A stretch of DNA of 64,000 nt from Candidatus Shapirobacteria bacterium (GCA_028704885.1 JAQWEN010000001.1:109172-173171); one strand, 5' to 3'; shown: positions 503-55,440, numbered from the stretch's first letter. A program made the numbers and translations. Notes: generated from the letters alone by a model not told the origin.

Positions 503-943
503 TTAAAAACCTCGACCGCCACCGCCATGAATTACACCAGAAGAACTGGTGTGAGTAGTAGAAGAGCTGGGAATAATAAAATCAAAAACATTAACACCAG
601 TAAAATTGCCAATAAATTTGATAATTAAGAAAGAAAGAATGACACCGACTAGACCAATAACTGAGGTGGTGAGAGTGGAAGTAGCTTTGGCGGTTTTTTT
701 GGGATCACCACCAGAAGTAAGATATAGAAAGCCACCTTTGAGGAGCATAATAAAAAAGGCAATTCCAGCAAAATAGACTATAACTTGGGCAATATTAGCA
801 AAAATACATTCAAAACCCTGAATATTGGCAATTTTGTCACCATTGCTGTCGAGGTTATAACAGGTGCTATTCCAAGCATCTTGGGCATAAACTGGAGAGG
901 GAGAGAGGATATTTGAGAGTAAATTCATGGTGTAATTATACAT
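503..943 (-). CDS. TrbC/VirB2-like (T4SS-type) pilin family small membrane protein, paralog 1 of 6
   Basis: Two hydrophobic helices flank a conserved 'TSGGDPKKT' motif. Five downstream paralogs share the architecture. Short pilins of this kind are typical in CPR. Confidence 0.6.
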   Translation of the reverse strand: MYNYTMNLLSNILSPSPVYAQDAWNSTCYNLDSNGDKIANIQGFECIFANIAQVIVYFAGIAFFIMLLKGGFLYLTSGGDPKKTAKATSTLTTSVIGLVGVILSFLIIKFIGNFTGVNVFDFIIPSSSTTHTSSSGVIHGGGGRGF

Positions 944-1005
944 TAAATCCTCTCTGTCTCGCTACTGCGAGACATCTCCCCTTAACAAAGGGAGAAGCCT
1001 TTAAC

Positions 1006-1032
1006 GAAAAACCCCTCCAGTTTTGGAGGGGT
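1006..1032 (-). terminator. Rho-independent terminator for the pilin gene at 1056..1433
   Basis: Hairpin cccctcca-gtttt-ggagggg. On the minus strand it is followed by a T-run, the complement of aaaaa at 1006-1011. Confidence 0.55.
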
Positions 1033-1055
1033 TTAAAAATCAATCTGATTTTAAA

Positions 1056-1433
1056 TTAGAAAGGTTTGATGGTTAGATCACCAAGGATGCTAATACCAAA
1101 AACTGTTCCAATTAATTGCATTATGGCCCAAGCTGCGAAAACAATGACTAAACCAATTAGAGCATTGGTAATTTGAGCACGAGCAGCAGCAACTTTCTTT
1201 TCATCACCACCAGAAGTAATCCATTTAAGACCACCAATGACAAGAATAAAGAAGAAAATTAAAGAAACGACGATTAAAACTAAGCTGATAGCACCGGAAA
1301 CCATACGATTGACAGTTAAACCTTCGAGATTTTTAAAGGTTCCGTCTCCGGCAGTTAACTTTAGGCTGTCAGCTGCATAGATTGGAGCGGCAATGGCAGC
1401 GAACTGAATTTTATTTTTGATTTGTTTAATCAT
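1056..1433 (-). CDS. TrbC/VirB2-like pilin family protein, paralog 2
   Basis: N-terminal hydrophobic segment, 'ITSGGDEKKVAAARA' motif, second TM helix. Confidence 0.6.
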   Translation of the reverse strand: MIKQIKNKIQFAAIAAPIYAADSLKLTAGDGTFKNLEGLTVNRMVSGAISLVLIVVSLIFFFILVIGGLKWITSGGDEKKVAAARAQITNALIGLVIVFAAWAIMQLIGTVFGISILGDLTIKPF

Positions 1434-1472
1434 TTTTATTTTAATAATTATTAACTAATTTTAGCAGTAAAT

Positions 1473-1844
1473 TTAAATAGTTGGCCATTTAATTTCTAAG
1501 GTGCCTAGTCCGTCGATACCAAAAATATAACCAACTAGTTTAAGAAGAGCGAGAACTGAGAAAATAATAACAATACCGACTAGGGAATAAAGAAGGGCAT
1601 GTTGGGCTTCTTCATATTTTTTAGGATCACCCATGGAAGAAATCATATGATAACCAGCGAGAATAAAATGATAGACAAAATAAATGACACCAAAAACAAA
1701 TAAAACAGAAATTATTGTTTGAATAGCACTATTAATATAGCCAGTGGGATTTTCACTTACATTTATGTTATCTTTGTTGGTTAAAACAGGATTAATTATT
1801 TGGGCGTAGATTGGTTGAATTAAAGTCATATCTTTATTGAGCAA
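1473..1844 (-). CDS. TrbC/VirB2-like pilin family protein, paralog 3
   Basis: 'SSMGDPKKYEEAQ' motif between two TM helices. Confidence 0.6.
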   Translation of the reverse strand: MLNKDMTLIQPIYAQIINPVLTNKDNINVSENPTGYINSAIQTIISVLFVFGVIYFVYHFILAGYHMISSMGDPKKYEEAQHALLYSLVGIVIIFSVLALLKLVGYIFGIDGLGTLEIKWPTI

Positions 1845-2196
1845 TCGTTTTACTAAAAAATGTTTGTAAATTGAAAACAGAACTCATACCAAGAAGATTG
1901 GCAATTAGAGCACCGAGACCATAGGCAAGGATAATGATGGCTAAACCCATAACATTTGTGGTTAATCGTTTTTTGGCTGATTCAAGTTCTTTTGGATCAC
2001 CTTGGGAAGCGATCATAGTAAAACCAGCTAAAATTATTTGGATAGTAAAATAAATGACACCGATGATAGTCATAATACCGATGATGGCACTAATAATGTT
2101 TTCGATTTGAGGAGCTGATCCAACATTTGTATCGCTTGGTTGGATACCTGGACCAGTAAGAGGATAGGCTAATAATTTATTGGTTAATTGGTTCAT
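1834..2196 (-). CDS. TrbC/VirB2-like pilin family protein, paralog 4
   Basis: 'ASQGDPKELESAKK' motif between two TM helices. Overlaps the neighbouring paralog by 11 nt. Confidence 0.6.
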   Translation of the reverse strand: MNQLTNKLLAYPLTGPGIQPSDTNVGSAPQIENIISAIIGIMTIIGVIYFTIQIILAGFTMIASQGDPKELESAKKRLTTNVMGLAIIILAYGLGALIANLLGMSSVFNLQTFFSKTIAQ

Positions 2197-2198
2197 AA

Positions 2199-2525
2199 TT
2201 ATATTTCTGGATTAAGAATGTTTAAGCCGAGCCAATGACCAATGGTATTGGTAAGGACAAAGGCAGAGGCAACAATAACAATACCAATAAGACTTTGCCA
2301 AATAGTGGCCCAAGCTTGAGCAGTTTTTTTCTCGTCACCGTTGGCAGAAAGATAAGTATAACCGGCAATAATAATTTGAATGACGAAATAGATGCCGGCA
2401 ATAGTGCCAGCTAGTTTAAAAATAGCACTTAAAAAAACGAAAATTCCATTACCACCACCACCGCCAGCATTTTCAAAATCCTGAATTGCTTTAGGAGCTT
2501 GAATGTTTCCAAAAATTCCTATCAT
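2199..2525 (-). CDS. TrbC/VirB2-like pilin family protein, paralog 5
   Basis: 'LSANGDEKKTAQAW' motif between two TM helices. A Gly-rich stretch GGGGGNG follows the N-terminus. Confidence 0.6.
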   Translation of the reverse strand: MIGIFGNIQAPKAIQDFENAGGGGGNGIFVFLSAIFKLAGTIAGIYFVIQIIIAGYTYLSANGDEKKTAQAWATIWQSLIGIVIVASAFVLTNTIGHWLGLNILNPEI

Positions 2526-2535
2526 ATTTTTATTT

Positions 2536-2871
2536 TTATAAGGTTGACTCTAAAATATTAAGTCCAGTAATAACTTCGATTATTTTAATAATGGAATAAG
2601 CCAAAAAAACAACGGCAAATCCAATTGCGGCATTGGTGATAGCCGATTTACCTTGGCTGGCTTTTTTAGGATCACCTTTGCCTGCGTTCATTATAACTGT
2701 AATTCCGCCAAAAATCAAAAGAGAGAGGAGAATAATGCCGGCGAGCATTAGAGAATATTTAAGAACAGCTGAAACAAGAATGCTGACACCGCCAGTTCCA
2801 TAAGTAGTTTCTAGGTTTTTACCTGTTCCAAGATTAATTTCGCCTATGTTGAAGGCTAACAACTGTTTCAT
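2536..2871 (-). CDS. TrbC/VirB2-like pilin family protein, paralog 6
   Basis: 'NAGKGDPKKASQGK' motif between two TM helices. Confidence 0.6.
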   Translation of the reverse strand: MKQLLAFNIGEINLGTGKNLETTYGTGGVSILVSAVLKYSLMLAGIILLSLLIFGGITVIMNAGKGDPKKASQGKSAITNAAIGFAVVFLAYSIIKIIEVITGLNILESTL

Positions 2872-2966
2872 TCTGTAAAATTATACTATATTTAAGGCTT
2901 AAAAAGAGGGTTTATTTTAATTAATAATTAAGAATTAATAATTAAGAATTTTTTTAATAAAAACGG

Positions 2967-2975
2967 TGTTATAAT
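2967..2975 (+). promoter_or_regulatory. Extended -10 promoter element (TGtTATAAT) upstream of the membrane-protein/ATP-grasp operon
   Basis: tgttataat sits about 50 nt upstream of the ATG at 3028. The AT-rich intergenic region carries tandem 'aataattaagaatt' words, also seen at 5385-5400. Confidence 0.4.
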
Positions 2976-3027
2976 ACGCAACAAATTAGTTCTTCAAGTT
3001 ATCAAGTTATAAAGTAGAATAAGTTAT

Positions 3028-3906
3028 ATGAAAAAAATAGTCGCCCCACTATTAATAGTATTTGGTGTTTTGTATTTATTACTTGGCACAAGACCGATTG
3101 AAGCTAAGGCGGTAAAGATTCTTCCAACTAAAACAGCAACTCCGACAGCAACCTTAATTCCAACAGCAATTCCAACAATAACCAATATTACCGAAGCAAA
3201 AAGCAATAAAATTGATTATAAGGTGGGAAAATGGAATGGTTTGAATAGTATGAGATGGATGATTAGACTGGCGATTGAAAGAGGGGTGTCGACTAATACA
3301 ATAGTTTTACTTTTATTACTGCCATTAATTGCAACTTTGGTGTCATTTTTGCATTATGTGGTGGGTTTGTCCGGTTATGGAATTTTTATGCCAACAATGA
3401 TTGCAGTGGCTTTTTTGGCAACTGGTTTCTTTGGTGGATTATTACTTTTTGCTTTAATTTTGATTATTTCTTTGGTTGGTGATTTTATTTTGAAAAAATT
3501 GAAGATTCATTTTTGGCCAGCTAGAGCCATTAATTTAATGTTTATTTCGGTGGCTGTTTTTGGGTTAATGTTATTGACTAGTTTTGTAGATTTGATTGAT
3601 ATTAGTTCAATTTCTATTTTCCCAATCTTATTTATGATACTTTTAGCAGAAGAATTTGTGAGAACACAATTGGTTAAAAGTAAAAGTGAGGCTAAAAATC
3701 TAATGATAGGAACAATTGTATTGGCTATTAGTGGAGGAGTCTTGATGAATTTTAGTTCGGTTCAAAATTTGGTTTTGAGATATCCAGAACTAGTTATATT
3801 AGTAGTATTGGTGGCAAATTTATTGATTGGAAATTATTCAGGAATAAGGTTGACAGAAATAAAAAGATTTAAAGGGGCGATACGTTCTAAACCCACCACC
3901 CGATAA
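3028..3906 (+). CDS. Polytopic membrane protein with about 6-7 TM helices and a signal/anchor plus Thr/Pro-rich linker; possible 7TM partner of the ATP-grasp system
   Basis: N-terminal hydrophobic segment, T/P-rich low-complexity stretch, then six to seven predicted TM helices. The C-terminal 'SKPTTR' tail is encoded by an RPE-like repeat. Confidence 0.55.
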   Translation: MKKIVAPLLIVFGVLYLLLGTRPIEAKAVKILPTKTATPTATLIPTAIPTITNITEAKSNKIDYKVGKWNGLNSMRWMIRLAIERGVSTNTIVLLLLLPLIATLVSFLHYVVGLSGYGIFMPTMIAVAFLATGFFGGLLLFALILIISLVGDFILKKLKIHFWPARAINLMFISVAVFGLMLLTSFVDLIDISSISIFPILFMILLAEEFVRTQLVKSKSEAKNLMIGTIVLAISGGVLMNFSSVQNLVLRYPELVILVVLVANLLIGNYSGIRLTEIKRFKGAIRSKPTTR

Positions 3907-3954
3907 ATCGGGAGCCTCCCTTGAAGAAGGGAGGCCTTAATTAATTTAATTAAT

Positions 3955-5319
3955 ATGTTTAATTTAAGAAAATATCGACAATTTTTGACCAAAAATGAGA
4001 GAAATAAGGTCTATTTGAGAAAAAATAGTGCCAGTGGTAAGGCAATTGCTGATAGTAAATTTAAAACAAAAAGAATTATTTCTAAAGCTGGAGTGTCGGT
4101 ACCAAAGCTGATAGCCAGATTCAAAACAGAACAAGATTTGGCTAAATTCAGATGGGAAGATTTGGAAGGTAATTTTGTAATAAAACCGGAATCTGGTTAT
4201 GGTGGAGATGGAATTTTAATTATTCGAAAAAGAGGAAAATGGGCTGGGGAATGGCAAAAAATGAATGGAGAAATTGTAAAAAGTTACGATTTGAATATGC
4301 AGTGTGAGGAAATTTTGGCAGGAAAATATAGTTTACATACTATGCCAGATAGAGTATTGATTGAAGAAAGAATTAAAATTCATCCGATGTTCTTATCGTT
4401 GACTAAGTCAGGAACTCCAGATATTAGAGTGATTGTTTACAACAATGTGCCTGTGATGGCGATGTTTAGAATTCCGACTGAAAAAAGTGGAGGTAAGGCT
4501 AATTTACAACAAGGGGCAATGGGACTGGGGATTGATTTAGCAACAGGAATTACAACTTTTGGAATTGAAGGAAAAGGAGAAGAAATCTATCGAATTTATG
4601 ATTTTGGTAAGAAAAAAAATAGAAAAGTGAATGGAATTAAAATTCCTTTTTGGAGAGAAATATTAGAAACGGCGATTAATTGTCAAAAAGCGGTTCCAAC
4701 TTTGGGATTTATGGGGGTGGATGTGGTTTTGGATAAAGAGAAGGGGCCAATGGTGCTGGAAGTAAATGCCAGACCGGGACTTTCGATTCAAATTTGTAAT
4801 AAAGCGGGGTTAAAAGCCAGAATAGAAAAAGTTGACGGGATAACAGTTCGAAGTATTGATCATGCGGTTACTTTGGCTAAATATTTATTTGGAGAAAGTT
4901 TTTTTGAAAAAGTTGAAGAAAAAGAGAAAAAACAAACAGTGGCACCAATAGAAATAATTAAAGTTAAAATTCCAAAAGGGTTTAAACCGCTTTTACAAAA
5001 AAGTCCGATTCTTAAGCAAGGAAAGCATAGAGTGGTGGATGTTAGAGCTAAAGTTGATACTGGAGCATTTAGAAGTTCGATTGATAGAAATTTGGCTGAA
5101 AAATTGGGTTTATTAACTAAAGATAGAATTTTATATTATCGAAATTATAAGTCGAGTTTGGGAAAACATCACGATCGACCGGTAATCGGGATTACTTTTT
5201 GGCTTAATGGCAGAAAAGTGATAACGGCAGTGAATGTAGCGGATAGAGATAAATTGAGAACTAAATTTTTATTAGGTAGAAAGGATCTAGGAGGATTCTT
5301 GGTTAGTGCTAAAAAATAA
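3955..5319 (+). CDS. RimK-related ATP-grasp ligase (alpha-L-glutamate-ligase-like) fused to a C-terminal RimB-type retropepsin-like domain ('ATP-dependent Zn protease', PF05618-like)
   Basis: The N-terminal 'RNKVYLRKNSASGKAIADSKFKTKRIISKAGVSVPKL' is typical of the TIGR02291-like ligase family; ATP-grasp core follows. The C-terminal 'RAKVDTGAFRSSID...LLGRKDLGGFLV' matches the DTGA-containing retropepsin-like domain that partners RimK. Confidence 0.65.
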   Translation: MFNLRKYRQFLTKNERNKVYLRKNSASGKAIADSKFKTKRIISKAGVSVPKLIARFKTEQDLAKFRWEDLEGNFVIKPESGYGGDGILIIRKRGKWAGEWQKMNGEIVKSYDLNMQCEEILAGKYSLHTMPDRVLIEERIKIHPMFLSLTKSGTPDIRVIVYNNVPVMAMFRIPTEKSGGKANLQQGAMGLGIDLATGITTFGIEGKGEEIYRIYDFGKKKNRKVNGIKIPFWREILETAINCQKAVPTLGFMGVDVVLDKEKGPMVLEVNARPGLSIQICNKAGLKARIEKVDGITVRSIDHAVTLAKYLFGESFFEKVEEKEKKQTVAPIEIIKVKIPKGFKPLLQKSPILKQGKHRVVDVRAKVDTGAFRSSIDRNLAEKLGLLTKDRILYYRNYKSSLGKHHDRPVIGITFWLNGRKVITAVNVADRDKLRTKFLLGRKDLGGFLVSAKK

Positions 5320-5322
5320 TAA

Positions 5323-5372
5323 TCCTCTCTGTCCCGCTGTTGCGGGACATCTCCCCTTAACAAAGGGAGAAA
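5323..5372. repeat. RPE-like palindromic repeat (family 1)
   Basis: aatcctctctgtcCCGCTGTTGCGGGacatctccCCTTaacaAAGGgagaa. The copy at 7376 is nearly identical. Confidence 0.8.
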
Positions 5373-5415
5373 ATAAATTAATAATTAAGAATTAAAAATT
5401 AATAATATATAAAAT

Positions 5416-6387
5416 ATGACCAAAATAGCAGTGTTTTTTGGAGGGAAAATTAGTCAACATTTGGTGTTGGTGAAAAAGGCGGCAAAGAAATTGGGAGTTA
5501 AATTGGATTTAATTTCTTATAATAAAATTTGCTTTGATACGGAAAGTAGCAAAATTTTAATAAGACCAAATTTGGTCGGCGAAAGCAGAATTAAACAATT
5601 TGATGATTTTCAAAAAGTCGATGATTATGATGTGTTATTTTTTAGAACCACCGGAAAACATTGGGAAGAGGTCGATCTTATTATTAATCAAATTAATAAG
5701 GGCGACCACAAGAGTCGCCCGTACATAGTTGATCCATTGGTGGAAAGTGGAAAACCATCGATGGCTTGTAAAGCTTGGCAAATGTTGGCTTTGAAAGAAG
5801 CGGGAATAGAGGTACCAAAAACGGTTTATGGGAGTTTGTGGTATTTGTATGAACAAATGCGGGCAGACACATCGGTCTGCCCTTACACTTGGCCAGTGAT
5901 AATTAAAGGATCGGGTGGAGATAGAGGAACAAGAGTTTTTAAGGCGGATAATTTAAAACAATTGGAAAAATTAGTTAGAGATTTGAGAAAAAGTGAAACT
6001 GAAGAGGGCCGAAGATATATGCTACAAGAATTTATTCCTAATGATGGTGATTTTAGAGTTTTGGTTTTGGGAGAAAAAGTGTTGGGAGTGATGAAAAGAA
6101 GCAGTCAATCGGTGGCCGAATTTAAGAATAATTATTCGGCCGGGGGAAAAGTAGAAGTGGCTGATTTGCCGGAAGAAATTAAACAATTAGCGGTTAAGGC
6201 GGCGAAAGTTTGCGGATTGGCAGTGGCGGGAGTGGATGTGGCTTTTAGAGATTTTGATCTTAAAAAACCAGTAATTTGGGAAGTTAATAAAGGACCTCAA
6301 TTTAAAGGTTTTATGCAGGCAACTGGAATTGATGTACCAGCAGAAATAGTTAAATTTTTAGTAAGTTTAAAACCCCTCTGTCGATAA
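5416..6387 (+). CDS. RimK-family ATP-grasp ligase
   Basis: Pre-ATP-grasp N-terminus. ATP-grasp motifs 'WPVIIKGSGGDRGTRVF', 'MLQEFIPNDGDFRVLVLGEKVLGVMKRS' and 'AGVDVAF...WEVNKGPQFKGF'. The C-terminal 'KPLCR' is encoded by a repeat copy. Confidence 0.75.
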   Translation: MTKIAVFFGGKISQHLVLVKKAAKKLGVKLDLISYNKICFDTESSKILIRPNLVGESRIKQFDDFQKVDDYDVLFFRTTGKHWEEVDLIINQINKGDHKSRPYIVDPLVESGKPSMACKAWQMLALKEAGIEVPKTVYGSLWYLYEQMRADTSVCPYTWPVIIKGSGGDRGTRVFKADNLKQLEKLVRDLRKSETEEGRRYMLQEFIPNDGDFRVLVLGEKVLGVMKRSSQSVAEFKNNYSAGGKVEVADLPEEIKQLAVKAAKVCGLAVAGVDVAFRDFDLKKPVIWEVNKGPQFKGFMQATGIDVPAEIVKFLVSLKPLCR

Positions 6388-6417
6388 ATCGACATCTCCC
6401 CTTGAAGAAGGGGAGAA
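6372..6417. repeat. RPE-like palindromic repeat (family 1); the central hairpin is a cgATAAAtcg variant
   Basis: cccctctgtCGATAAATCGacatctccCCTTgaagAAGGggagaa. Confidence 0.75.
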
Positions 6418-6438
6418 ATATAAATTAAATATATAAAA

Positions 6439-7377
6439 ATGAATAAAAAAATAGTCACATTTACAATGTCGTTAAAACAAAGCCAATTTGAGGTAGATAG
6501 ATTGGAGACTGAAGCTAAAAAACTGGGAGTAGAGGTAAACAGATCGCTTTATAAAGATCTAACTTTTAATTTGGAAAATGGGAAAACCAAAGTTTTGATT
6601 AGAGAAGAAGAAATTAATGGAGAAAATACTTTGGGAATGTGGTTTAGAGTGGCGGGAACAGTGTCGGGAAAATATACTGAGGGTCGAAATTTGGCGATAA
6701 GACTTTTACAAAATGAAGTGTTTGCGGCCAATCATACAGGATATTTGAATTGGACCAGAATGGGAAAAATTAGTCAACATGGATTATTTCTAGAAAACAA
6801 TATTCCAGTGGTACCGACTAAAATATTTTATACAAAAGAACAAATTCAAAACCCCTCTGTCCTTCGGACATCTCCCCTTGATGAAAGGGAGACTTTTGGG
6901 GATTGGGAATTTCCAATTATTGCGAAGCATGAAAAGGGCTATCAAGGTAAAAGTGTGAGGAAATTTGAATCTATAAAAGAAGTTAGAAAGTTTGTAAAGA
7001 GAATTAATGAAAAGAATATTGGAATGTTTTTGTGGCAAAAATGTTTACCAACCAGATGGGATTTGAGAATTATTGTGTTGGACGGAAAGGCAATTGGGGC
7101 CATGAAAAGATCGGCAGTCGGTGATGAATTTAGAAGCAATTTTAGCTTGGGGGGAAATGTTGAAGCATGGAATTTGTCGGAAACTGATAGAGAAATTGCG
7201 GAAAAGGTGGCTAAAGTTTGTGGATTGGATTATTGTGGAGTAGATATTATGAAAGACAATGATGACAATAGTTTTGTATTGGAAGTAAACCGACAATGCC
7301 AATTTCAGGGTTTTGAAAAGTCGACGGGAATTAATGTGGCTAAATTAGTAGTGGAAATGTTTTTGAAAAAGAAATAA
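6439..7377 (+). CDS. RimK-family ATP-grasp ligase carrying an in-frame RPE-like repeat insertion
   Basis: 'FPIIAKHEKGYQGKSVRKF', 'DLRIIVLDGKAIGAMKRS' and 'GVDIM...LEVNRQCQFQGF' are ATP-grasp motifs. Residues 'NPSVLRTSPLDERE' are translated from the repeat copy at 6850-6893. Confidence 0.7.
   Translation: MNKKIVTFTMSLKQSQFEVDRLETEAKKLGVEVNRSLYKDLTFNLENGKTKVLIREEEINGENTLGMWFRVAGTVSGKYTEGRNLAIRLLQNEVFAANHTGYLNWTRMGKISQHGLFLENNIPVVPTKIFYTKEQIQNPSVLRTSPLDERETFGDWEFPIIAKHEKGYQGKSVRKFESIKEVRKFVKRINEKNIGMFLWQKCLPTRWDLRIIVLDGKAIGAMKRSAVGDEFRSNFSLGGNVEAWNLSETDREIAEKVAKVCGLDYCGVDIMKDNDDNSFVLEVNRQCQFQGFEKSTGINVAKLVVEMFLKKK
6850..6893. repeat. RPE-like repeat (family 1) inserted in-frame inside the ATP-grasp CDS
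   Basis: aacccctctgtCCTTCGGacatctccCCTTgatgaAAGGgagac. The frame is uninterrupted. Confidence 0.7.
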
Positions 7378-7426
7378 TCCTCTCTGTCCCGCTGCTGCGG
7401 GACATCTCCCCTTAACAAAGGGAGAA
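7376..7426. repeat. RPE-like palindromic repeat (family 1)
   Basis: aatcctctctgtcCCGCTGCTGCGGGacatctccCCTTaacaAAGGgagaa. Confidence 0.8.
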
Positions 7427-7489: not shown

Positions 7490-7563
7490 GGGTGATTAGC
7501 TCAGTTGGTTAGAGCACCGTCCTGATAAGACGGGGGTCGGAGGTTCGAGTCCTCCATCACCCA
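7490..7563 (+). tRNA. tRNA-Ile (anticodon GAT)
   Basis: The cloverleaf folds by hand. Acceptor stem GGGTGAT/ATCACCC. Anticodon stem CCGTC/GACGG with loop CTGATAA. T-arm GGAGG-TTCGAGT-CCTCC. CCA is not encoded. Confidence 0.85.
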
Positions 7564-7573
7564 CAGATACAAA

Positions 7574-7626
7574 ATCCCTCTCGTTCGCCAGCTGGCGAAC
7601 GCATCTCCCTTTGATAAAAGGGAGAA
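7574..7626. repeat. RPE-like repeat (family 1); the central hairpin is a gttcgccagctggcgaac variant
   Basis: aatccctctcGTTCGCCAGCTGGCGAACgcatctccCTTTgataAAAGggagaa. It lies immediately 3' of tRNA-Ile. Confidence 0.7.
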
Positions 7627-7655
7627 ATTGTTTTTGTTTTGTTAGAATTAAAGAC

Positions 7656-8771
7656 ATGAAGAAGTGGATTTTAAGATTAGGATTGATTCTTATATTAGTT
7701 GGTGGGTTTTTGGGATGGGGTTTTTTGAATAATAAAATTGAGATTTTAAATCCATTGTCCAATAAAAAAACTGTTGTTAATCATAAAAAAAACATGAAAG
7801 TGGTGGGTTTTTTACCTACTTGGAATATTGGTAAAACAATTGAATATACAGATGAAATTAGCCATTTGATATTTTTGGGAATAGAAATTGATGAAAAAGG
7901 AAACTTGATCTGGGATACTCAGAGTAAAAAAATAAATAATGAAAATTATCTAAAACAAAAAGAATTAATTTGGAAAAATGGAGGTAAAAATATTTTGGGA
8001 ATTAAATTATTTGAAGATGAAAATATTGATAAATTGATGGCTTCGGAGGAGGCCCAGGATAACTTGCTTAATCAATTAGCTGAATTATTAAAAACAAATA
8101 AGTTTGATGGGGTTAATGTTGATTTTGAATATATGGGGAATCCAACAGCAATTTTATCGGAAGAAATTGTTGGTTTTTTAAATAAATTAAAAGAAGAAAA
8201 TTTAGGCGAAATCAGTTTAGATGTATTTGCCAATACTATTATTAAAGGTGATCAAGAGAATTTATTAAAATTAATGGCCGAAGTTGATTATTTAATAGTG
8301 ATGGCTTATGACTTTCATCGACCAGGAGTGGATTTTGCTGGACCGGTGGCACCAATTAGGGCATCAGTAGGAGAGAGAAGTATTTTGGAAGTGATAGAAA
8401 AAATAGGAATTTCTGGTTTAGACAAAACTAAAATGGTGTTGGCATATCCCTTATATGGTTATGAATGGAAAACTTATAACAATGAATTTGGGGCAGCGGT
8501 TAAAAGAGGCTGGTCGGCTTTGGCTTCGTATAAAAGGATGAAAGAGATGATAGATACTGCCGACACTAAAGCTATGGCGGTTAAATGGGATGAGGAATCG
8601 ATGACACCGTGGATGTCTTTTGAAGAAAATGGGGTAATTCACCAGATTTATTTTGAAAATTTGGAAAGTATTACCAGGAAAATTGAATTGGCAAAAAATA
8701 ATCAGATGGGAGGAATTGGTTTTTGGGCGTTAGGTTATGAAGGAGAAAATAGTGAAGTTTGGGAATTTTAG
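7656..8771 (+). CDS. Glycoside hydrolase family 18 (chitinase-like) protein with an N-terminal membrane anchor
   Basis: The GH18 catalytic motif 'FDGVNVDFEY' fits the DGxDxDxE pattern. 'LIVMAYDFH' and 'GGIGFWALGYEG' are present. I chose the start at MKKWILRLGLILILVGG (7656); the track start at 7611 would read through the repeat. Confidence 0.7.
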   Translation: MKKWILRLGLILILVGGFLGWGFLNNKIEILNPLSNKKTVVNHKKNMKVVGFLPTWNIGKTIEYTDEISHLIFLGIEIDEKGNLIWDTQSKKINNENYLKQKELIWKNGGKNILGIKLFEDENIDKLMASEEAQDNLLNQLAELLKTNKFDGVNVDFEYMGNPTAILSEEIVGFLNKLKEENLGEISLDVFANTIIKGDQENLLKLMAEVDYLIVMAYDFHRPGVDFAGPVAPIRASVGERSILEVIEKIGISGLDKTKMVLAYPLYGYEWKTYNNEFGAAVKRGWSALASYKRMKEMIDTADTKAMAVKWDEESMTPWMSFEENGVIHQIYFENLESITRKIELAKNNQMGGIGFWALGYEGENSEVWEF

Positions 8772-9412
8772 CTATTTTTTTTAAGCCATTTTTCTCGTTT
8801 AAGAAAAAGGAATCCCAAAATTAGACCAGCACCGACAACAGTGAGAACACTTTCGATTTTATCTAGACCATGAGCTAGACCAGTAAAAGCTTCGCCCATT
8901 TGAAAACCGATAAAGCCTAAAATAATGGCACGAACAATAAGGGCTAAAAACATAATAGGATAAAATTTGGCTGGTTTAAAGCGGAAAGCACCACAGAAAC
9001 CAGACATTAAAGAAACTGGGACAACGGGAATAATGACAGCAATAAAAATAAAGAGTTCATCTTTGATGGTTTTTTGAAAATCGGCTCTAATTTTTTCAAT
9101 TAAAGGCCAAGAAATACCAACATATTTACCAAATTTATCAACTAATGGTCGACCACCAAAATAAGCGATTAAAAAAACCATACTGGTACCAATAACGGCA
9201 CCAATGGAATAAGGAAGGGAAACTTTGGAAATTATTTCCCAAAGAGCTTGAAAAATGGAAACATTATGAGAAACAAGAAAGGCGCCACCGGACATAGTAA
9301 TAATAGGGGATGGAATAGGAACTATGATTTGTTCAACTATACCGCCAATGAACATAGATAAAGATCCATGGGTTTTGACCATGTCGAGAATAATTTGAAG
9401 AATTTGAGTCAT
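8768..9412 (-). CDS. DedA/TVP38-family membrane protein
   Basis: 'GGIVEQIIVPIPSPIITMSGGAFL' matches the DedA signature 'e.i.PiP.e.l...aG'. 'GGRPLVDKFGKY' is present. Multiple TM helices. Confidence 0.65.
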   Translation of the reverse strand: MTQILQIILDMVKTHGSLSMFIGGIVEQIIVPIPSPIITMSGGAFLVSHNVSIFQALWEIISKVSLPYSIGAVIGTSMVFLIAYFGGRPLVDKFGKYVGISWPLIEKIRADFQKTIKDELFIFIAVIIPVVPVSLMSGFCGAFRFKPAKFYPIMFLALIVRAIILGFIGFQMGEAFTGLAHGLDKIESVLTVVGAGLILGFLFLKREKWLKKNS

Positions 9413-9484
9413 GGCTTAATATTATCGTCAAAATGAATTATTGTCTAGCGAACTTTTAGAGATAAACTGAGCTATATTTAGTTG

Positions 9485-9513
9485 TTGACGTGTCTGTTCA
9501 AATTAGGTAGAAT
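9485..9513 (+). promoter_or_regulatory. Near-consensus sigma70 promoter: TTGACG, 17-nt spacer, TAGAAT
   Basis: ttgacg at 9485-9490, tagaat at 9508-9513, spacer exactly 17 nt. Confidence 0.6.
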
Positions 9514-9616
9514 ACTTCCACTTATCGAGATGCTGAAAGTCAACCTAAAAAACAATAAAAACTTTATTAAAGGGGGATTGCCCGCTTAAGAAAGTAAATT
9601 GTAAATGGAATATTGA

Positions 9617-9644
9617 CCGAAAGCTCCGAGCTTTCGGTTTTTTT
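9617..9644 (+). terminator. Intrinsic terminator closing the roughly 130-nt unit that begins at the promoter
   Basis: ccgaaagc-tccga-gctttcgg followed by ttttttt. Confidence 0.6.
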
Positions 9645-9680
9645 ATGACCAAAAGCAGTACTTTAAAGAGGATAGCATTT

Positions 9681-9754
9681 GGGCCTGTGGCTTAGTTGGT
9701 TATAGCGCCTCATTTGCAATGAGGAGGTCGGGAGTTCGACTCTCCCCAGGTCCA
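9681..9754 (+). tRNA. tRNA-Ala (anticodon TGC)
   Basis: Acceptor stem GGGCCTG/CAGGTCC includes a G3:U70 wobble, the alanine identity element. Anticodon stem CCTCA/TGAGG with loop TTTGCAA. T-arm GGGAG-TTCGACT-CTCCC. Confidence 0.85.
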
Positions 9755-9928
9755 CCTACGCATAAAGCTACGGTGGATAAATCCACTAATAAATGGTTAG
9801 AAATAAGGAGACAAAGAAATTTATCTCCTTAAACTAAGTATTTGTACATTAACAATTTATTGAATCGAAAGTAATTTAATTTCAATTTCGTTTATTCTTG
9901 GCAACTAAATTGAGTTGCCAAATATTGA

Positions 9929-12855
<2,927 letters not shown>

Positions 12856-13061
12856 GATTTAAGCTAAGTAGAGAGAAGATTGAAGAAACTTTTTCAATAT
12901 GTTTGGCTTTTAGCCCCAATCAAAATTTGGGATTAAAAGCTGAATGGGCAACTCAATTTAGAGGCCAAGAAGAAGAACTTTAGAGCTTTAGTTCGCTAGA
13001 GCTTTAGATTTTAGAAATTAGAAATTATAATTACATTTTCGATCAAATTTAGTTTTTGAAC

Positions 13062-13178
13062 TCTGGTCATTGGAGCGAAGTGGACCCACCTCTTCCCATT
13101 TCGAACAGAGAAGTGAAACTCTTTAGCGCTGACAATAGTCTTTCCGCAAGGGATCTTGAAGATAGGTCGTGGCCAGAA
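13062..13178 (+). rRNA. rrf: 5S ribosomal RNA
   Basis: 'cttcccatttcgaacagagaagtgaaactctttagcgctgacaatagt' matches the 5S loop-B/C consensus '...CCCATnCCGAACnnGGAAGTnAAGC...'. Terminal helix ctggtca/tggccag. Confidence 0.85.
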
Positions 13179-24253: not shown

Positions 24254-27200
24254 TTAGTTAATAATCCACCAGTTAATAATAATGTCTTGATCTAAATAGT
24301 TGTCTAAAGCAATAGTAAAAGAGGATTCTGATTCAGAAACAACTTTGGATTTAACGTATGGAACTTGGTTTTTGGTGGAACCGACTGGAGTGAGATAAAC
24401 CATAGAATTTGGAGTGATTTTATTATTACTAATAATTATTTCAGTTTTGCCGGCTGGAAGGGTGGCAGTGCCAGCGGTGGCATTGGAGGTTAATTGAGAA
24501 GAACTGGTAGCAATGGCACCGAAACCGGATTCAGCAATAATGGTTTGAGCACTATCAGTTGAGATTTTCAGTTTATCAGATATCAGTTCTTCAGATGTTA
24601 ATTTTTTGGTTTGGATTTCGTCGGCAGTAATTAAATTGGCCATTAAACTGCCAGAGACTTTAAGATTGCCGGTGATTTCAACTTCGCCATTTTCGGCAAT
24701 AACCAAAGTGTCGCCCATGATATGAACAGAACCAGTAGAAGATGGTTGAATGAAAAGAGCGGAGTTGGTAGTTTCAATTAAATTATCTTTAATAGCAATT
24801 TCACCAGTAGTGAAAGTGCCAGTGACAAAGGCATTACCAAGTTCGGTGTCGCCTTGGACCATAAGTTTGGCACCGACAACAAGATTATTAGTAAGAGCGA
24901 GATCGCCGTTTATTTTAGCCGAATCACTGGCAATATTCATTGACCAATCAGAAGATTGAGACATAATTGAGCTGCCAGTGATGGCAGAGGATGAGGCTTC
25001 GTTTGTAGAAATTAATTTTTTAAGTTCATCGCGGAGAGAACTAACCTTGGCGGTCATTAAATCACCAAAAGAACCTTCTTTGGAAATAATGTTGTCGGCA
25101 TATAAAGTAGATACGCTCGCTTCGCGGGCTGTCAGTTTGTCAGATATCAGTTCGTCAGTTGTTAAGGTTCCGGAAATGGTGGCAGTGGTAGCAGTTAATT
25201 CGTCAATGTTGGCTTTTGGAGAAATAATTTTTTCAGCGACTAAGTTTTTAGTAACTATATTAGTAGCGGAAATTAAACCAGCTTTGATTTTAGCGGAAGC
25301 GATTTCGGCAAATTGTCCCATGCGAGTGACAGTAGCGCCAAGAGTATCCGTTAGAGAATAAGTGGCTGCCTCGATTTCATTTTTGGCACCATCGTAACCG
25401 AGAGAAGCGAGAACTTCATCGGAAACATTATAATTGACATTAATTTCGCCAGTAGCAGTAATAGAAAGATCTTTATTGAGATTGGTAACTTTAGCATCAA
25501 CTTCTTGAATGCCACGGATGGCTAAAGGAATCATACCAATATAGTTAATACTCTTATAACCATCGCTGCCAGTATTAACGAAACTTGGAAGAATTTGTTC
25601 AACATCTTGGGCAATGAAACCGTATTGTCGTTGAGCCATCTCTTGAGGATTAGTTATACCAACTTTGTCAGCATAAGCTTGGTTCCAATTGAAACTGACT
25701 GGATTAAGACTATTAAGAACGGAAAGACTGTCAAAAATTTCAATATTAGGGTTGGAGCTAGAACCAAGTCCAATGTTAACAACATCATCTTTAAGTCGTT
25801 GATCGGAAAGCCAGCTGGTACTAGAACTCCAGTCAGGAGAATTACTAGAGTAAAAAGGTCGACCATTAGTATCCATACCAATTTGTCGATTGGCATGAGT
25901 AAAACATAATTCATCACCGTTACCGCCAGAGACAGTACATTGAGAGATTGTCCAGCTGCCGATAGTAAAAGCATCACCTTGAGCAACATAAGTATATTCG
26001 GTACTACCGTTGAAGGCACGAATACGATCAGCATGGGTATGAATGTTCCAAATGTTGGCTGTGGTTTCATCTTTAACATTGATACCACCAGCTGATTGGC
26101 TGGAAGGAGTACCAGAGATATAAAGAGCACCGCCGGTTATTTCCATTTTACCGTAGGTAGCATTAGGACTAGCGGTGCCGACACCGACATTGCCACTACC
26201 AGTAAGAGATAAAGCCATTGATTCTCCAGCATTTGGGTATGATTTAACATAAAAACTTAGATTTGTTAAATTAGCACCAGAACCACTAGCAGTGAAGGCT
26301 GATCTGGCGTAATAGCTTGTAGGTTCATTACTATAACTCCATCTTAAGTTAGGACCACTAGAGGAAATATCTAAATTTGATTGAGGATTAGTAGTTCCAA
26401 TGCCGACATTGCCACCAAGAGGATTTAACATTAAAGGAAAAGTAAAATTATCGCTTTCTCTCATTGCTTGTAGCCAAGATCCATAAGTTGGACCTCCAGC
26501 CAGAGTACCAATATGGACACCAGCGTCACCTCCTAAAAATTTTGCAACTGCATTGACAGAAGTTATTGTATTATTTTGTGATCCTTTTACGTCCAATTTA
26601 GCTCCTGGATTGGTGGTGCCGATGCCGACGAGGCCAGTATCAGTGATGATCATTCTATCAGTTGTTCCAGCGTCGGCGTTAGCAGTAGCGAATATTATGG
26701 AACCAGATCCATAATTTGCAGCTCCTCTTTTAACCCAAATTGAGGCATTGTTGGCAGTGTTACCTGTGTTTCTCCAAAATATTTGACCTAAGTTGTTATA
26801 AGAACTGCCACCAGAACTTTTTAGTGCTATATTTCCTGCAACTTCTAATTTTTCCAAAGGATTGGTGGTGCCGATGCCGACTTTGCCAGCGAAATAATTA
26901 TTTCCAGTACCGACAGTACTGATTTCACCAGCAATTTGGAAATCACCGTTACCACTTAGAGCAGCAATATTAGTGGTGGCTAGTTGCCAAATCCAACCTC
27001 GGGTGGTGGCACCAGAAAAACGATTGTATAAAGCCCAATCGTTAGTAACTGGACCATAAGTTCCATAACCAGCGGTGGCAGTGGTTTGCATTTGAGTGAA
27101 ATAACCATTACCTAATGAGCCATAATAACTGAGGGATCTATTACTGCTAGCGGTTAGTTCAATACTAGTTCCAACAACAAGAGAGGTGCCAACATTGAGG

Positions 27201-55110: not shown

Positions 55111-55440
55111 ATGGATGTAATAGATGCGCTAGACTGGATCGTGGAGAAGTGGATTTATAAAATTCGCAGATTGAGTTTGAACCAATTAAAGGCGTTGGAG
55201 GTTTTGGTGTCGGATAGAAACGGAATAATTGAAGCGAATGATTCCAGTAAAGAATTAAATCTAAAAGGAAAGAATTTAGGAGGAATATTTTCATCGTTAT
55301 CGAGACAGCAAATTGGAGGAGAAAGTATAATTTTAGCTTGGGGAAGGGCTAAAGGCGGGAGAGGTTTAAGATGGAAGTTGAACGAAAAAATAATAAATAA
55401 AGTAGAACTAAAAAAGTTAATAAAGGAGATTTTAAGATGA
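55111..55440 (+). CDS. Hypothetical small protein; the stop/start overlap (ATGA) shows translational coupling to the downstream giant gene
   Basis: 109-aa ORF. Its stop TGA shares a base with the ATG of 55437..62570. Confidence 0.4.
   Translation: MDVIDALDWIVEKWIYKIRRLSLNQLKALEVLVSDRNGIIEANDSSKELNLKGKNLGGIFSSLSRQQIGGESIILAWGRAKGGRGLRWKLNEKIINKVELKKLIKEILR

What the first reader, a model, noticed from the sequence alone, without database searches (positions are those of the whole stretch)
3028..7377. Operon of a polytopic (7TM-like) membrane protein and three tandem RimK-type ATP-grasp ligases, one fused to a RimB-type retropepsin-like domain, divergent from the pilin array
3955..5319 has the N-terminal signature of the alpha-L-glutamate-ligase-related ATP-grasp family. 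That family is known to be genomically linked to a 7TM protein and to a retropepsin-like 'ATP-dependent Zn protease' domain. Here the retropepsin domain ('AKVDTGAFRSSID') is fused to its C-terminus. Two further RimK-like ligases follow, 5416..6387 and 6439..7377. RimK-type enzymes add poly-amino-acid tails to protein C-termini; in E. coli the target is ribosomal protein S6. Three paralogous ligases plus a membrane component suggest a dedicated peptide-tailing or modification system. Its substrate is unknown. The six secreted pilin paralogs are transcribed divergently from the same 155-bp intergenic region, so a functional link to them is a hypothesis only.
Basis: partly seen in the sequence, partly recalled or inferred. 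Interest (0 to 1): 0.75.

Follow-up and report, generated by a model that had tools for sequence, protein, structure and literature searches.

The report
Rlo-like ligase-protease operon in Shapirobacteria
A four-gene operon in a tiny uncultured bacterium encodes a membrane protein, a peptide-building enzyme fused to a small protease, and two further peptide-building enzymes; it is a streamlined, previously undescribed variant of the Rlo/Rim systems that make and trim glutamate chains in Pseudomonas, and nothing ties it to the neighbouring pilin genes.

Summary
Four same-strand ORFs sit at the stated coordinates:
- a PF14402 7TM protein;
- a 454-aa PF14397/TIGR02291-type ATP-grasp with a C-terminal retropepsin-like domain (DTG at D368);
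- two RimK-family ligases, 30% identical to each other.

The genome is a Candidatus Shapirobacteria (CPR) MAG.

The closest characterised system is Pseudomonas rloABC, followed by RimB/RimK. This locus differs from rloABC in three ways:
- the 7TM protein lacks the inactive transglutaminase domain;
- the protease is fused to the cytoplasmic ligase rather than secreted;
- one or two extra RimK-family ligases are attached.

The core, 7TM plus ligase-protease fusion plus at least one extra ATP-grasp, recurs in most distant CPR relatives examined. Relatives also carry 7TM–ligase fusions and ligase–MATCAP carboxypeptidase fusions.

The pilin array adjoins the operon only within the Shapirobacteria clade, so that link looks like inherited synteny.

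The three RloA residues that contact polyglutamate (the Lys two residues before the catalytic Asp, plus R114 and R137) are conserved here. The most likely function is therefore membrane-associated synthesis and trimming of acidic, Glu-rich alpha-peptide chains. The substrate is unknown.

Verdict: a new variant of a known kind, of moderate interest.

The parts
2872..3027 (.). 156-bp AT-rich divergent intergenic region between the pilin array and the operon; presumed promoter region
   Evidence: Sequence read. The consensus promoter scan found no more sites than in shuffled sequence: 14 against 17.8 expected. No promoter is demonstrated.
3028..3906 (+). 7TM membrane protein. It is a homolog of the C-terminal 7TM module of RloB. 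It has an N-terminal hydrophobic anchor or signal, a Thr/Pro-rich linker and seven TM segments, and it lacks the inactive transglutaminase domain.
   Evidence: PF14402, E 3.3e-27, aa 91-282. NF052267 RloB matches only model positions 312-506 of 508, 62.5 bits against a cutoff of 900. The hydropathy scan shows an N-terminal segment plus seven further segments. Invariant polar residues in the TM region include H109, H161, R166, D191, E208, R212 and Q214 across 30 homologs. The AF2 model has low confidence, pLDDT 59.
3955..4854 (+). RloC-type ATP-grasp ligase domain (about aa 1-300) of the fusion protein
   Evidence: PF14397, 214 bits, aa 16-294; TIGR02291, 267 bits. The whole-protein AF2 model has pLDDT 86.8. 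Foldseek top hits are Ddl, cyanophycin synthetase, RimK and ArgX/LysX at E about 1e-9. The Mg/ATP motif 'GVD...LEVNARPG' is present, and D256, E269 and N271 are invariant in 30 homologs.
4966..5319 (+). Retropepsin-like (PF05618, RimB/RloA family) domain, about aa 338-454. The catalytic motif is D368-T-G-A. K366, R408 and R431 correspond to the polyglutamate-contacting K46, R114 and R137 of RloA.
   Evidence: PF05618 and Asp_protease_2 hits. The CPR-only profile hits 9G59, 9G58 and 2PMA. DTG is present in all 55 complete CPR fusions fetched. The domain has pLDDT 76-90 and is mostly beta-strand with a short C-terminal helix. It is strongly basic, 28 K/R against 9 D/E.
5416..6387 (+). RimK-family ATP-grasp ligase 1 ('RimK1')
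   Evidence: PF08443, 96.6 bits; TIGR00768, 129.9 bits (cutoff 143.4); next-best LysX, MptN and CofF models. The best PDB sequence hits are Pseudomonas and E. coli RimK, E about 1e-15, with the FxxN..GG, GVD and EVN motifs aligned. NCBI annotates it 'hypothetical protein'.
6439..7377 (+). RimK-family ATP-grasp ligase 2 ('RimK2'), 30% identical to ligase 1
   Evidence: PF08443, 100.5 bits; TIGR00768, 126.5 bits. The best PDB hits are E. coli RimK 5ZCT and 4IWX, E about 1e-14. Identity to RimK1 is 30%. It is absent from about 15 related Shapirobacteria loci, which carry a single ligase about 40% identical to RimK1.
503..2871 (-). Six tandem T4SS_pilin (PF18895) paralogs. They are a divergent neighbour and are not shown to belong to the system.
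   Evidence: Pfam hits, E 4e-7 to 9e-10. The array adjoins the operon only in the Shapirobacteria clade.
7490..7564 (+). tRNA-Ile(GAT), marking the downstream end of the operon
   Evidence: ARAGORN and Rfam. A weak terminator-like hairpin lies at 7409-7422.

Best explanation
This is the Candidatus Shapirobacteria version of the Rlo/Rim class of amino-acid-ligase plus retropepsin modules.

**Proposed mechanism.**
1. The 7TM protein sits in the membrane with its C-terminus in the cytoplasm and docks the RloC-type ATP-grasp ligase.
2. That ligase, with one or two RimK-family ligases, uses ATP to build alpha-linked, probably glutamate-rich, peptide chains. The chains may be free or attached to the C-terminus of an unidentified acceptor.
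3. The retropepsin domain fused to the ligase dimerises and cuts those acidic chains. This sets their length or releases them, as RimB does for RimK.
4. The 7TM partner either passes the product or a signal across the membrane, or localises the reaction to the envelope.

**Shown here:** the domain identities, intact catalytic motifs, conserved gene order, and ligase–7TM and ligase–peptidase fusions in relatives.

**Inferred:** glutamate as the monomer, the polymeric product, the cleavage specificity and the role of the 7TM protein.
For: - **Domain assignments.**
- **Protease domain.** A CPR-only profile hits RimB/RloA-family structures at E 3.6e-10. DTG is present in 55 of 55 complete CPR fusions fetched.
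- **Polyglutamate contacts.** The RloA residues whose mutation most reduces polyE cleavage, R114 and R137, plus the contact residue K46 (PMC11957051), align by exact spacing to R408, R431 and K366. They are kept in 23-25 of 30 diverse homologs.
- **Precedent from RimB.** RimB cleaves polyE tails, and free poly-alpha-Glu was detected only when RimB and RimK were together. A RimB-RimK hybrid protein exists (PMC11957791).
- **Genetic link in Pseudomonas.** rloB and rloC deletions suppress the triple rloA protease mutant, which ties the 7TM protein, ligase and protease to one process.
- **Gene order.** The 7TM gene immediately precedes the ligase gene in every CPR and proteobacterial locus with upstream sequence.
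- **Fusions.** 7TM–ATPgrasp_ST and transglutaminase–7TM–ATPgrasp_ST fusion proteins exist (P0343, P0377).
- **Extra ligases and peptidases.** Distant CPR loci keep the 7TM gene, the fusion and extra ATP-grasp ligases, and add MATCAP carboxypeptidases.
- **Conservation.** The fusion is the most conserved gene of the locus, 77% mean identity against 60-65% for its operon partners.
- **Ligase motifs.** All three ligases keep the Mg/ATP motifs.
Against: - No substrate or product is identified, and no biochemistry exists for any RloC-type ligase.
- None of the ligases reaches an equivalog cutoff, so glutamate specificity is an extrapolation.
- The basic charge of the protease domain is weak evidence, because all four proteins of the operon have pI above 9.
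- The 7TM fold could not be modelled or matched to any transporter, so export is speculative.
- In 29 of 76 representatives with this domain the D[TS]G motif was not found. Proteolysis is therefore not essential to the family as a whole.
- Three ligases suggest the product may be a hetero-peptide rather than polyGlu.
Confidence: 0.5

Rival explanations
1. A post-translational tail 'writer/eraser' system acting on a specific cytoplasmic protein, most plausibly a ribosomal protein as with RimK and S6. The ligases add C-terminal residues and the fused retropepsin removes them. The 7TM protein acts only as a regulator or sensor.
For: - ORF3 and ORF4 are closest to RimK among solved structures.
- Relatives fuse or pair the ligase with MATCAP-type carboxypeptidases (PF08014), a family named for an enzyme that trims a protein C-terminus.
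- In three separate CPR lineages the operon lies next to translation genes. In the window and in L001 and L033 it is upstream of tRNA-Ile ... tRNA-Ala-23S (5S follows in the window and L001; L033 ends inside the 23S). In L056 it is directly downstream of 23S-5S. In L055 it is directly downstream of rplK-rplA-rplJ-rplL.
Against: - The S6-ligase equivalog model scores 64 and 61 bits against a cutoff of 331.
- No rpsF gene and no ORF with an acidic tail or a polyE run that could serve as a candidate acceptor occur in the window.
- The obligatory 7TM partner and the 7TM-ligase fusions point to the membrane.
- Translation genes probably make up a large share of such small genomes (general knowledge, not measured here), so adjacency is weak evidence.
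- RimK1-type ligases are replaced by an unrelated ATP-grasp class in distant CPR loci.
Confidence: 0.22
2. An envelope or peptidoglycan-related peptide ligase system. The ligases build or modify a cell-wall-associated peptide at the membrane and the protease recycles it.
For: - Rlo mutants in Pseudomonas have defects in cell shape, hypo-osmotic tolerance and sensitivity to cell-wall-targeting antibiotics, and the authors suggest a peptidoglycan connection.
- A secreted GH18 hydrolase gene often follows the operon in Shapirobacteria.
- One distant locus has a MurL-like epimerase two genes downstream (L085).
- Another distant locus has a class A PBP nearby (L083).
Against: - The GH18 gene is separated from the operon by a tRNA gene, and its position and order vary between loci.
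- Ddl models score far below their cutoffs; Mur ligases belong to a different fold family and were not tested here.
- The cell-wall neighbours are not consistent across loci.
Confidence: 0.1
3. One reading: the ligases modify the six divergently transcribed T4SS-type pilins.
For: The pilin array (6-8 genes) sits head-to-head with the 7TM gene in all 45 Shapirobacteria-clade loci with enough upstream sequence. In those loci the fusion protein is 65-94% identical to the window's.
Against: - A pilin HMM gives no hit in less related CPR loci that keep the operon (L050, L052, L055, L056, L080-L085; L051 gives only an E 8.8e-4 hit at a contig edge) or in any proteobacterial rlo locus. The association is therefore confined to one clade and fits inherited synteny.
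- The pilin C-termini are not acidic.
- If these pilins are processed and inserted like other T4SS pilins (general knowledge, not tested here), their termini are unlikely to meet cytoplasmic ligases.
Confidence: 0.06
4. A graspetide/RiPP cluster, in which the ATP-grasp enzymes cyclise a small precursor peptide.
For: CPR bacteria do encode graspetide clusters (PMC8939145). ORF3 and ORF4 give weak hits to maturase models at E 1e-5 to 1e-6.
Against: - Those hits are 20-28 bits against cutoffs of 350-475, whereas the RimK-family model scores about 130 bits.
- The intergenic gaps of 48-96 bp leave no room for a precursor ORF.
- The conserved partners are a 7TM protein and peptidases, not precursors.
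Confidence: 0.02

Closest known systems
Pseudomonas aeruginosa rloABC operon (RloA secreted retropepsin, RloB inactive-transglutaminase 7TM protein, RloC ATP-grasp); PMC11957051
   Same: - The same three protein families are present: PF14402 7TM, PF14397/TIGR02291 ATP-grasp and PF05618 retropepsin.
- The 7TM gene lies immediately upstream of the ligase gene.
- The catalytic DTGA motif and the Lys/Arg residues that contact polyglutamate are conserved.
   Different: - The extracytoplasmic inactive transglutaminase domain is absent. An anchor plus a Thr/Pro linker takes its place here, and PKD domains do so in one relative (L083).
- The protease has no signal peptide. It is fused to the C-terminus of the cytoplasmic ligase, so it acts inside the cell.
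- It is about 35 residues shorter between the DTG and RP motifs than RloA.
- One or two RimK-family ligases are added to the operon.
- The host is a CPR bacterium, whereas the authors report RloB as 96% proteobacterial.
RimB/RimK and the RimBK hybrid (Pseudomonas fluorescens; Desulfotalea psychrophila); PMC11957791
   Same: - A cytoplasmic retropepsin is physically coupled to an ATP-grasp alpha-L-glutamate ligase. A natural fusion of the two is precedented.
- ORF3 and ORF4 belong to the RimK Pfam family.
   Different: - Domain order is reversed: ligase then protease here, protease then ligase in RimBK.
- The fused ligase is RloC-type, not RimK-type.
- A 7TM partner is present.
- The RimK-like genes and the protease domain do not reach the RimK, S6-ligase or RimB model cutoffs.
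- There is no RimA.
Tubulin tyrosine ligase (TTL/TTLL) with MATCAP carboxypeptidase: the eukaryotic C-terminal tail cycle
   Same: An ATP-grasp ligase is paired with a MATCAP-family (PF08014) metallopeptidase. Many relatives of ORF2 are fused to, or adjacent to, MATCAP domains. ORF2 gives a weak TTL Pfam hit, E 2e-4.
   Different: The window itself has no MATCAP gene. The resemblance is one of logic only, and no target protein is known.
LysX/ArgX–LysW amino-group carrier system
   Same: These are RimK-family ligases acting on the C-terminal Glu of a small carrier protein. LysX is the second-best NCBIfam hit for ORF3.
   Different: The scores are far below the cutoff (96 against 276). No LysW-like small acidic protein and no lysine or arginine biosynthesis genes were seen among the ORFs examined around the locus.

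Membership tests
rloABC system | RloC-type ATP-grasp (PF14397; TIGR02291 'alpha-L-glutamate ligase-like') | tested here: met
   PF14397 scores 214 bits against a cutoff of 31.4. TIGR02291 gives E 1.8e-79 and 267 bits, which is below its hypothetical-equivalog cutoff of 314. The protein is a family member but not an equivalog. It is 35-40% identical to the proteobacterial RloC genes fetched here.
rloABC system | [quoted passage not shown] | tested here: not met
   Only the 7TM half is present. PF14402 scores 96 bits. NF052267 aligns only to model positions 312-506 of 508 and scores 62.5 bits against a cutoff of 900.
rloABC system | RloA: stand-alone retropepsin with an N-terminal signal peptide (secreted) | tested here: not met
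   The only retropepsin domain in the window is aa ~338-454 of the ligase, so it has no signal peptide of its own. The RloA2 model scores 15.8 bits against a cutoff of 250.
rloABC system | 7TM gene immediately upstream of, and co-oriented with, the ATP-grasp gene | tested here: met
   The gap is 48 bp in the window. The same order occurs in every CPR and proteobacterial locus with upstream sequence.
RimK (ribosomal protein S6 L-glutamate ligase) | Score above the equivalog model NF007764 or the subfamily model TIGR00768 | tested here: not met
   NF007764 scores 64 and 61 bits against a cutoff of 331. TIGR00768 scores 129.9 and 126.5 bits against 143.4. The Pfam RimK domain PF08443 is met, at 96.6 and 100.5 bits against 21.
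RimK (ribosomal protein S6 L-glutamate ligase) | Cognate S6 with a C-terminal Glu acceptor | not testable with these tools
   No rpsF gene is present in the 64-kb window or in any fetched locus.
RimB / PF05618 retropepsin-like peptidases | Homology to PF05618 with the catalytic D-T/S-G-A motif | tested here: met
   PF05618 scores 26.6 bits against a cutoff of 27 for the single sequence. The CPR-only profile hits 9G59, 9G58 and 2PMA at E 3.6e-10 to 2e-7. DTG is invariant in 55 CPR fusions. The RimB equivalog model NF052261 scores only 16 bits against 200, so this is not a RimB ortholog.
RimB / PF05618 retropepsin-like peptidases | Cleavage of runs of eight or more glutamates | not testable with these tools
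   Only the contact residues could be checked: K366, R408 and R431 are conserved.
RimBK hybrid | N-terminal RimB domain followed by a RimK ligase | tested here: not met
   The order is reversed and the ligase belongs to PF14397, not the RimK family (PMC11957791).
   Ddl scores at most 34 bits against a cutoff of 243. GshB scores at most 61 bits against 272. In every case these fall below the RimK-family or TIGR02291 scores.
Graspetide ATP-grasp maturases | Above-cutoff match to maturase models plus an adjacent precursor peptide | tested here: not met
   Scores are 20-28 bits against cutoffs of 350-475. There is no room for a precursor ORF.
Known anti-phage defence systems | Match to a PADLOC model | tested here: not met
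   None of the four proteins gave a hit.

The most novel reading that the evidence does not exclude
The 7TM protein and the ligase-protease fusion form a membrane-embedded synthase that makes an alpha-linked acidic peptide polymer, or polyglutamylated envelope proteins, and delivers it to the cell surface. This would be a streamlined ancestor-like form of the Rlo system. In ultra-small episymbiotic CPR bacteria it would shape the envelope or the contact with the host. The family-wide coupling of these ligases to retropepsin and MATCAP peptidases would then be a prokaryotic counterpart of the eukaryotic ligase/carboxypeptidase 'tail code'.
Probability: 0.15. Interest if true: 0.8.

Novelty: new variant of a known kind. 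Interest (0 to 1): 0.48.

Why it matters
The biochemical product of the Rlo system is still unknown, although the system affects osmotic tolerance, biofilm formation and antibiotic sensitivity in Pseudomonas.

The CPR form reduces the system to its essentials: a bare 7TM module and a ligase carrying its own protease. It shows that the protease need not be secreted. It also shows that the ligase is repeatedly fused to its partners, namely the 7TM protein, the retropepsin and MATCAP.

That narrows the possible models and offers simpler proteins for in-vitro work.

For CPR biology, this is a highly conserved operon of unknown role in organisms with very small genomes. The fusion protein averages 77% identity across about 50 species-level genomes. 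Two of the four genes are still annotated 'hypothetical'.

Tried and rejected
- **7TM structure.** The AF2 model from a 30-sequence alignment had pLDDT 59. Foldseek against the PDB gave nothing below E 0.9 and TM-scores under 0.25. No fold or transporter assignment is possible.
- **Fusion model against the PDB.** Foldseek returned only generic ATP-grasp hits (Ddl, CphA1, RimK, ArgX) at similar E-values. It neither resolves specificity nor reports on the small protease domain.
- **Single-sequence PDB search with ORF2.** No hits. A domain profile was needed.
- **Literature.** Searches for the Pfam and TIGRFAM names found no papers, as did a search for MATCAP with ATP-grasp. The Iyer et al. 2009 amidoligase paper (PMC3268129) is not held. 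What I recall of its gene-neighbourhood predictions is therefore not cited as evidence.
- **Candidate acceptors.** A search for rpsF and for acidic-tailed or polyE ORFs in the window and loci found nothing.
- **Promoter and terminator scan.** The counts did not clearly exceed those in shuffled sequence.
- **PADLOC.** No defence-system match.
- **Homolog search with RimK1.** It returned only the same Shapirobacteria/Woesebacteria clade among the 120 hits listed, so it could not test linkage from the RimK side.
- **Rejected readings.** Graspetide cluster; Ddl or GshB identity; functional coupling to the pilins.

Full report
**1. What is in the sequence**

Four co-oriented ORFs occupy 3028-3906, 3955-5319, 5416-6387 and 6439-7377. 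The gaps between them are 48, 96 and 51 bp. tRNA-Ile follows at 7490-7564. Across a 156-bp AT-rich spacer lie six minus-strand ORFs (503-2871), all matching PF18895 T4SS_pilin.

The exact proteins are in NCBI from a Candidatus Shapirobacteria MAG on a 735-kb contig, in the Patescibacteria/Microgenomates group. NCBI names them '7TM domain-containing protein', 'sugar-transfer associated ATP-grasp domain-containing protein' and, twice, 'hypothetical protein'.

**2. Domain identities**

- **ORF1** matches PF14402 (E 3.3e-27). It matches only the C-terminal 7TM half of the RloB model, positions 312-506 of 508. Hydropathy shows an N-terminal anchor or signal, a Thr/Pro-rich linker and seven TM segments.
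- **ORF2** matches PF14397 (214 bits) and TIGR02291 (267 bits, under the 314 cutoff). Its last ~115 residues match PF05618 (26.6 bits against a cutoff of 27) and Asp_protease_2.
- **ORF3 and ORF4** are RimK-family ligases. PF08443 scores are 97 and 100 bits, and TIGR00768 scores are 130 and 126 bits against a cutoff of 143. Their best solved relatives are RimK from E. coli and Pseudomonas, with the catalytic motifs aligned.

ORF3 and ORF4 are 30% identical to each other. They are barely alignable to ORF2, so the first ligase belongs to a different family. Ddl, GshB, graspetide-maturase and S6-ligase equivalog models all fall far below their cutoffs. PADLOC finds nothing.

**3. The protease domain**

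- A profile built only from CPR C-terminal domains hits three solved PF05618-family structures: 9G59 at 3.6e-10, 9G58 at 9e-8 and 2PMA at 2e-7. It then hits the ApRick and Ddi1 retropepsins weakly.
- Alignment with RloA-like lipoproteins from the proteobacterial loci shows three shared motifs: K-x-D-T-G-A-x-x-S-S, R-P-V and L-L-G-R.
- The Shapirobacteria domain is about 35 residues shorter between the DTG and RP motifs.
- DTG is present in all 55 complete CPR fusions fetched.
- In RloA, K46, R114 and R137 contact polyglutamate, and R114A and R137A most reduce cleavage (PMC11957051). Counting from the catalytic Asp, these map to K366, R408 and R431. They are retained in 23-25 of 30 diverse homologs.
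- The AF2 model of the whole protein is confident, pLDDT 86.8. The C-terminal domain is mostly beta-strand with a short helix at the GR motif.

**4. Relatives and neighbourhoods**

A scan of one genome per species returned 79 loci.

*Shapirobacteria clade.* These are 51 loci whose fusion protein is 65-94% identical to the window's. Several carry other record titles: Woesebacteria, Parcubacteria, 'Patescibacteria group', 'bacterium' or 'uncultured Gammaproteobacteria'.
- The order is pilin array (6-8 genes, minus strand), then 7TM, then the fusion, then a RimK1-like ligase. A RimK2 gene follows in some loci.
- The pilin array is present in all 45 loci with enough upstream sequence.
- About 30 loci have two downstream ligases. 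About 15 have one, roughly 40% identical to RimK1.
- The fusion is the most conserved gene, 77% mean identity against 60-65% for its partners and 50-64% for the pilins.

*Less related CPR loci.* These keep the core but not the pilins.
- L050-L052 have the 7TM gene, the fusion and one or two RimK-family ligases.
- L055 (Dojkabacteria) runs rplK-rplA-rplJ-rplL, 7TM, fusion, ATP-grasp, AAT (PF03417) domain protein, ATP-grasp.
- L056 runs 23S-5S, 7TM, fusion, ATP-grasp, with a convergent MATCAP gene.
- L083 has a PKD-PKD-7TM protein, a fusion-MATCAP protein, three ATP-grasp ligases and a MATCAP gene.
- L082 has the fusion, a MATCAP gene and an ATP-grasp ligase.
- L085 has the 7TM gene, the fusion, a DUF3541 gene and a MurL-like gene.

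The extra ligases in these distant loci belong to a different ATP-grasp class from RimK1 and RimK2. The theme of 'additional ligases' is therefore kept by non-orthologous genes.

*Proteobacterial loci.* Twenty-two of the 23 show an RloB-like 7TM gene immediately upstream of rloC. The five whose ORFs were inspected show a lipoprotein-type gene, then RloB of 500-520 aa, then RloC of 317-348 aa without a protease domain.

**5. Family-wide architectures**

An exhaustive search of 50%-identity representatives found 362 clusters at E <= 1e-30. Of the best 150:
- 76 carry the retropepsin-like domain after the ligase;
- 28 of those continue into a further large domain. The examples scanned carry MATCAP, YdjC or a second ATP-grasp;
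- 29 of the 76 have lost the D[TS]G motif, most of them the ~790-aa forms.

7TM–ligase and transglutaminase–7TM–ligase fusions also exist (P0343, P0377). These fusions argue that the ligase works physically with the 7TM protein and with peptidases.

**6. Mechanism**

Three published findings bear on this:
- RloA cuts runs of eight or more glutamates.
- Loss of rloB or rloC suppresses loss of all three RloA proteases.

Combined with the conserved contact residues, intact ligase motifs and the fusions, the best reading is as follows. The module sits at the cytoplasmic face of the membrane. It builds alpha-linked acidic peptide chains, and its own protease domain trims or releases them. The 7TM partner localises the reaction or transmits the product or a signal.

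The monomer, the product and the role of the 7TM protein are inferred, not shown.

The main rival is a tail writer/eraser acting on a ribosomal or other cytoplasmic protein. It draws support from the RimK affinity, the MATCAP partners, and adjacency to rRNA or ribosomal-protein genes in three CPR lineages. Weaker rivals are a cell-wall role, pilin modification and a graspetide cluster.

**7. Comparison and novelty**

The system works like Rlo/Rim but fails two defining features of rloABC: the transglutaminase domain and the secreted protease. It also fails the cutoffs for RimK, RimB and the RimBK architecture.

The Rlo paper reports RloB as 96% proteobacterial. No paper in the searchable library describes the CPR form.

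The protein families and the domain architecture are already in public databases, so this is a new variant of a known kind rather than a new kind.

**8. Verdict**

- Interest is moderate, 0.48.

Noticed in passing
window 7490-13178: The rRNA region is split. tRNA-Ile (7490-7564) is separated from tRNA-Ala (9681-9756), 23S (9929-12896) and 5S (13062-13178) by a GH18 gene (7611-8771) and a VTT/DedA-family gene (8768-9412, minus strand). No 16S gene occurs anywhere in the 64-kb window. L001 shows the same layout.
   Followed up: partly
window 503-2871: Six tandem paralogous T4SS_pilin (PF18895) genes lie here. The array has 6-8 copies in related genomes. None of the large window ORFs scanned is a recognisable type IV secretion component.
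   Followed up: partly
window 24254-35941 (minus strand) and 55437-62570 (plus strand): These are giant ORFs of 3895 aa and 2377 aa. The first carries a Peptidase_S74 (endosialidase chaperone) domain near its C-terminus, as in tail-fibre-like proteins. The second was not examined.
   Followed up: partly
L005, L006, L008-L012 and about 20 further loci (CAY.../CAZ... records): Many MAG records titled 'uncultured Gammaproteobacteria bacterium' carry this Shapirobacteria-type locus, pilin array included, with the fusion protein 65-87% identical. The record titles look taxonomically wrong.
   Followed up: no
P0245, P0258, P0264, P0273, P0291, P0294, P0312 and others: In many distant homologs, mostly the ~790-aa forms whose scanned examples are fused to a MATCAP domain, the retropepsin-like domain has lost the D-T/S-G motif (for example ATG, NTG, DTS, ETG, DSS). 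The domain may survive there as a non-catalytic module.
   Followed up: partly
L056 1-3950: A 23S rRNA gene is interrupted by three group I introns and contains two LAGLIDADG endonuclease ORFs. It lies directly upstream of 5S and of the 7TM/ligase operon.
   Followed up: no
L085 2553-4954; L083 12099-13876: Cell-wall-related genes lie near the operon in two distant relatives. L085 has a DUF3541 gene and a MurL-like epimerase directly downstream. L083 has a class A PBP nearby.
   Followed up: no
L016, L017, L019-L022, L024, L027-L029, L031, L038, L042, L044: This Shapirobacteria subgroup has only one downstream ligase (about 296 aa, roughly 40% identical to RimK1) in place of the RimK1 plus RimK2 pair.
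   Followed up: partly
L001 433-6711: Beyond the far end of the pilin array in the closest relative lie three ORFs without Pfam matches (265, 549 and 643 aa) and a DUF6909 protein. The corresponding region lies outside the window.
   Followed up: no
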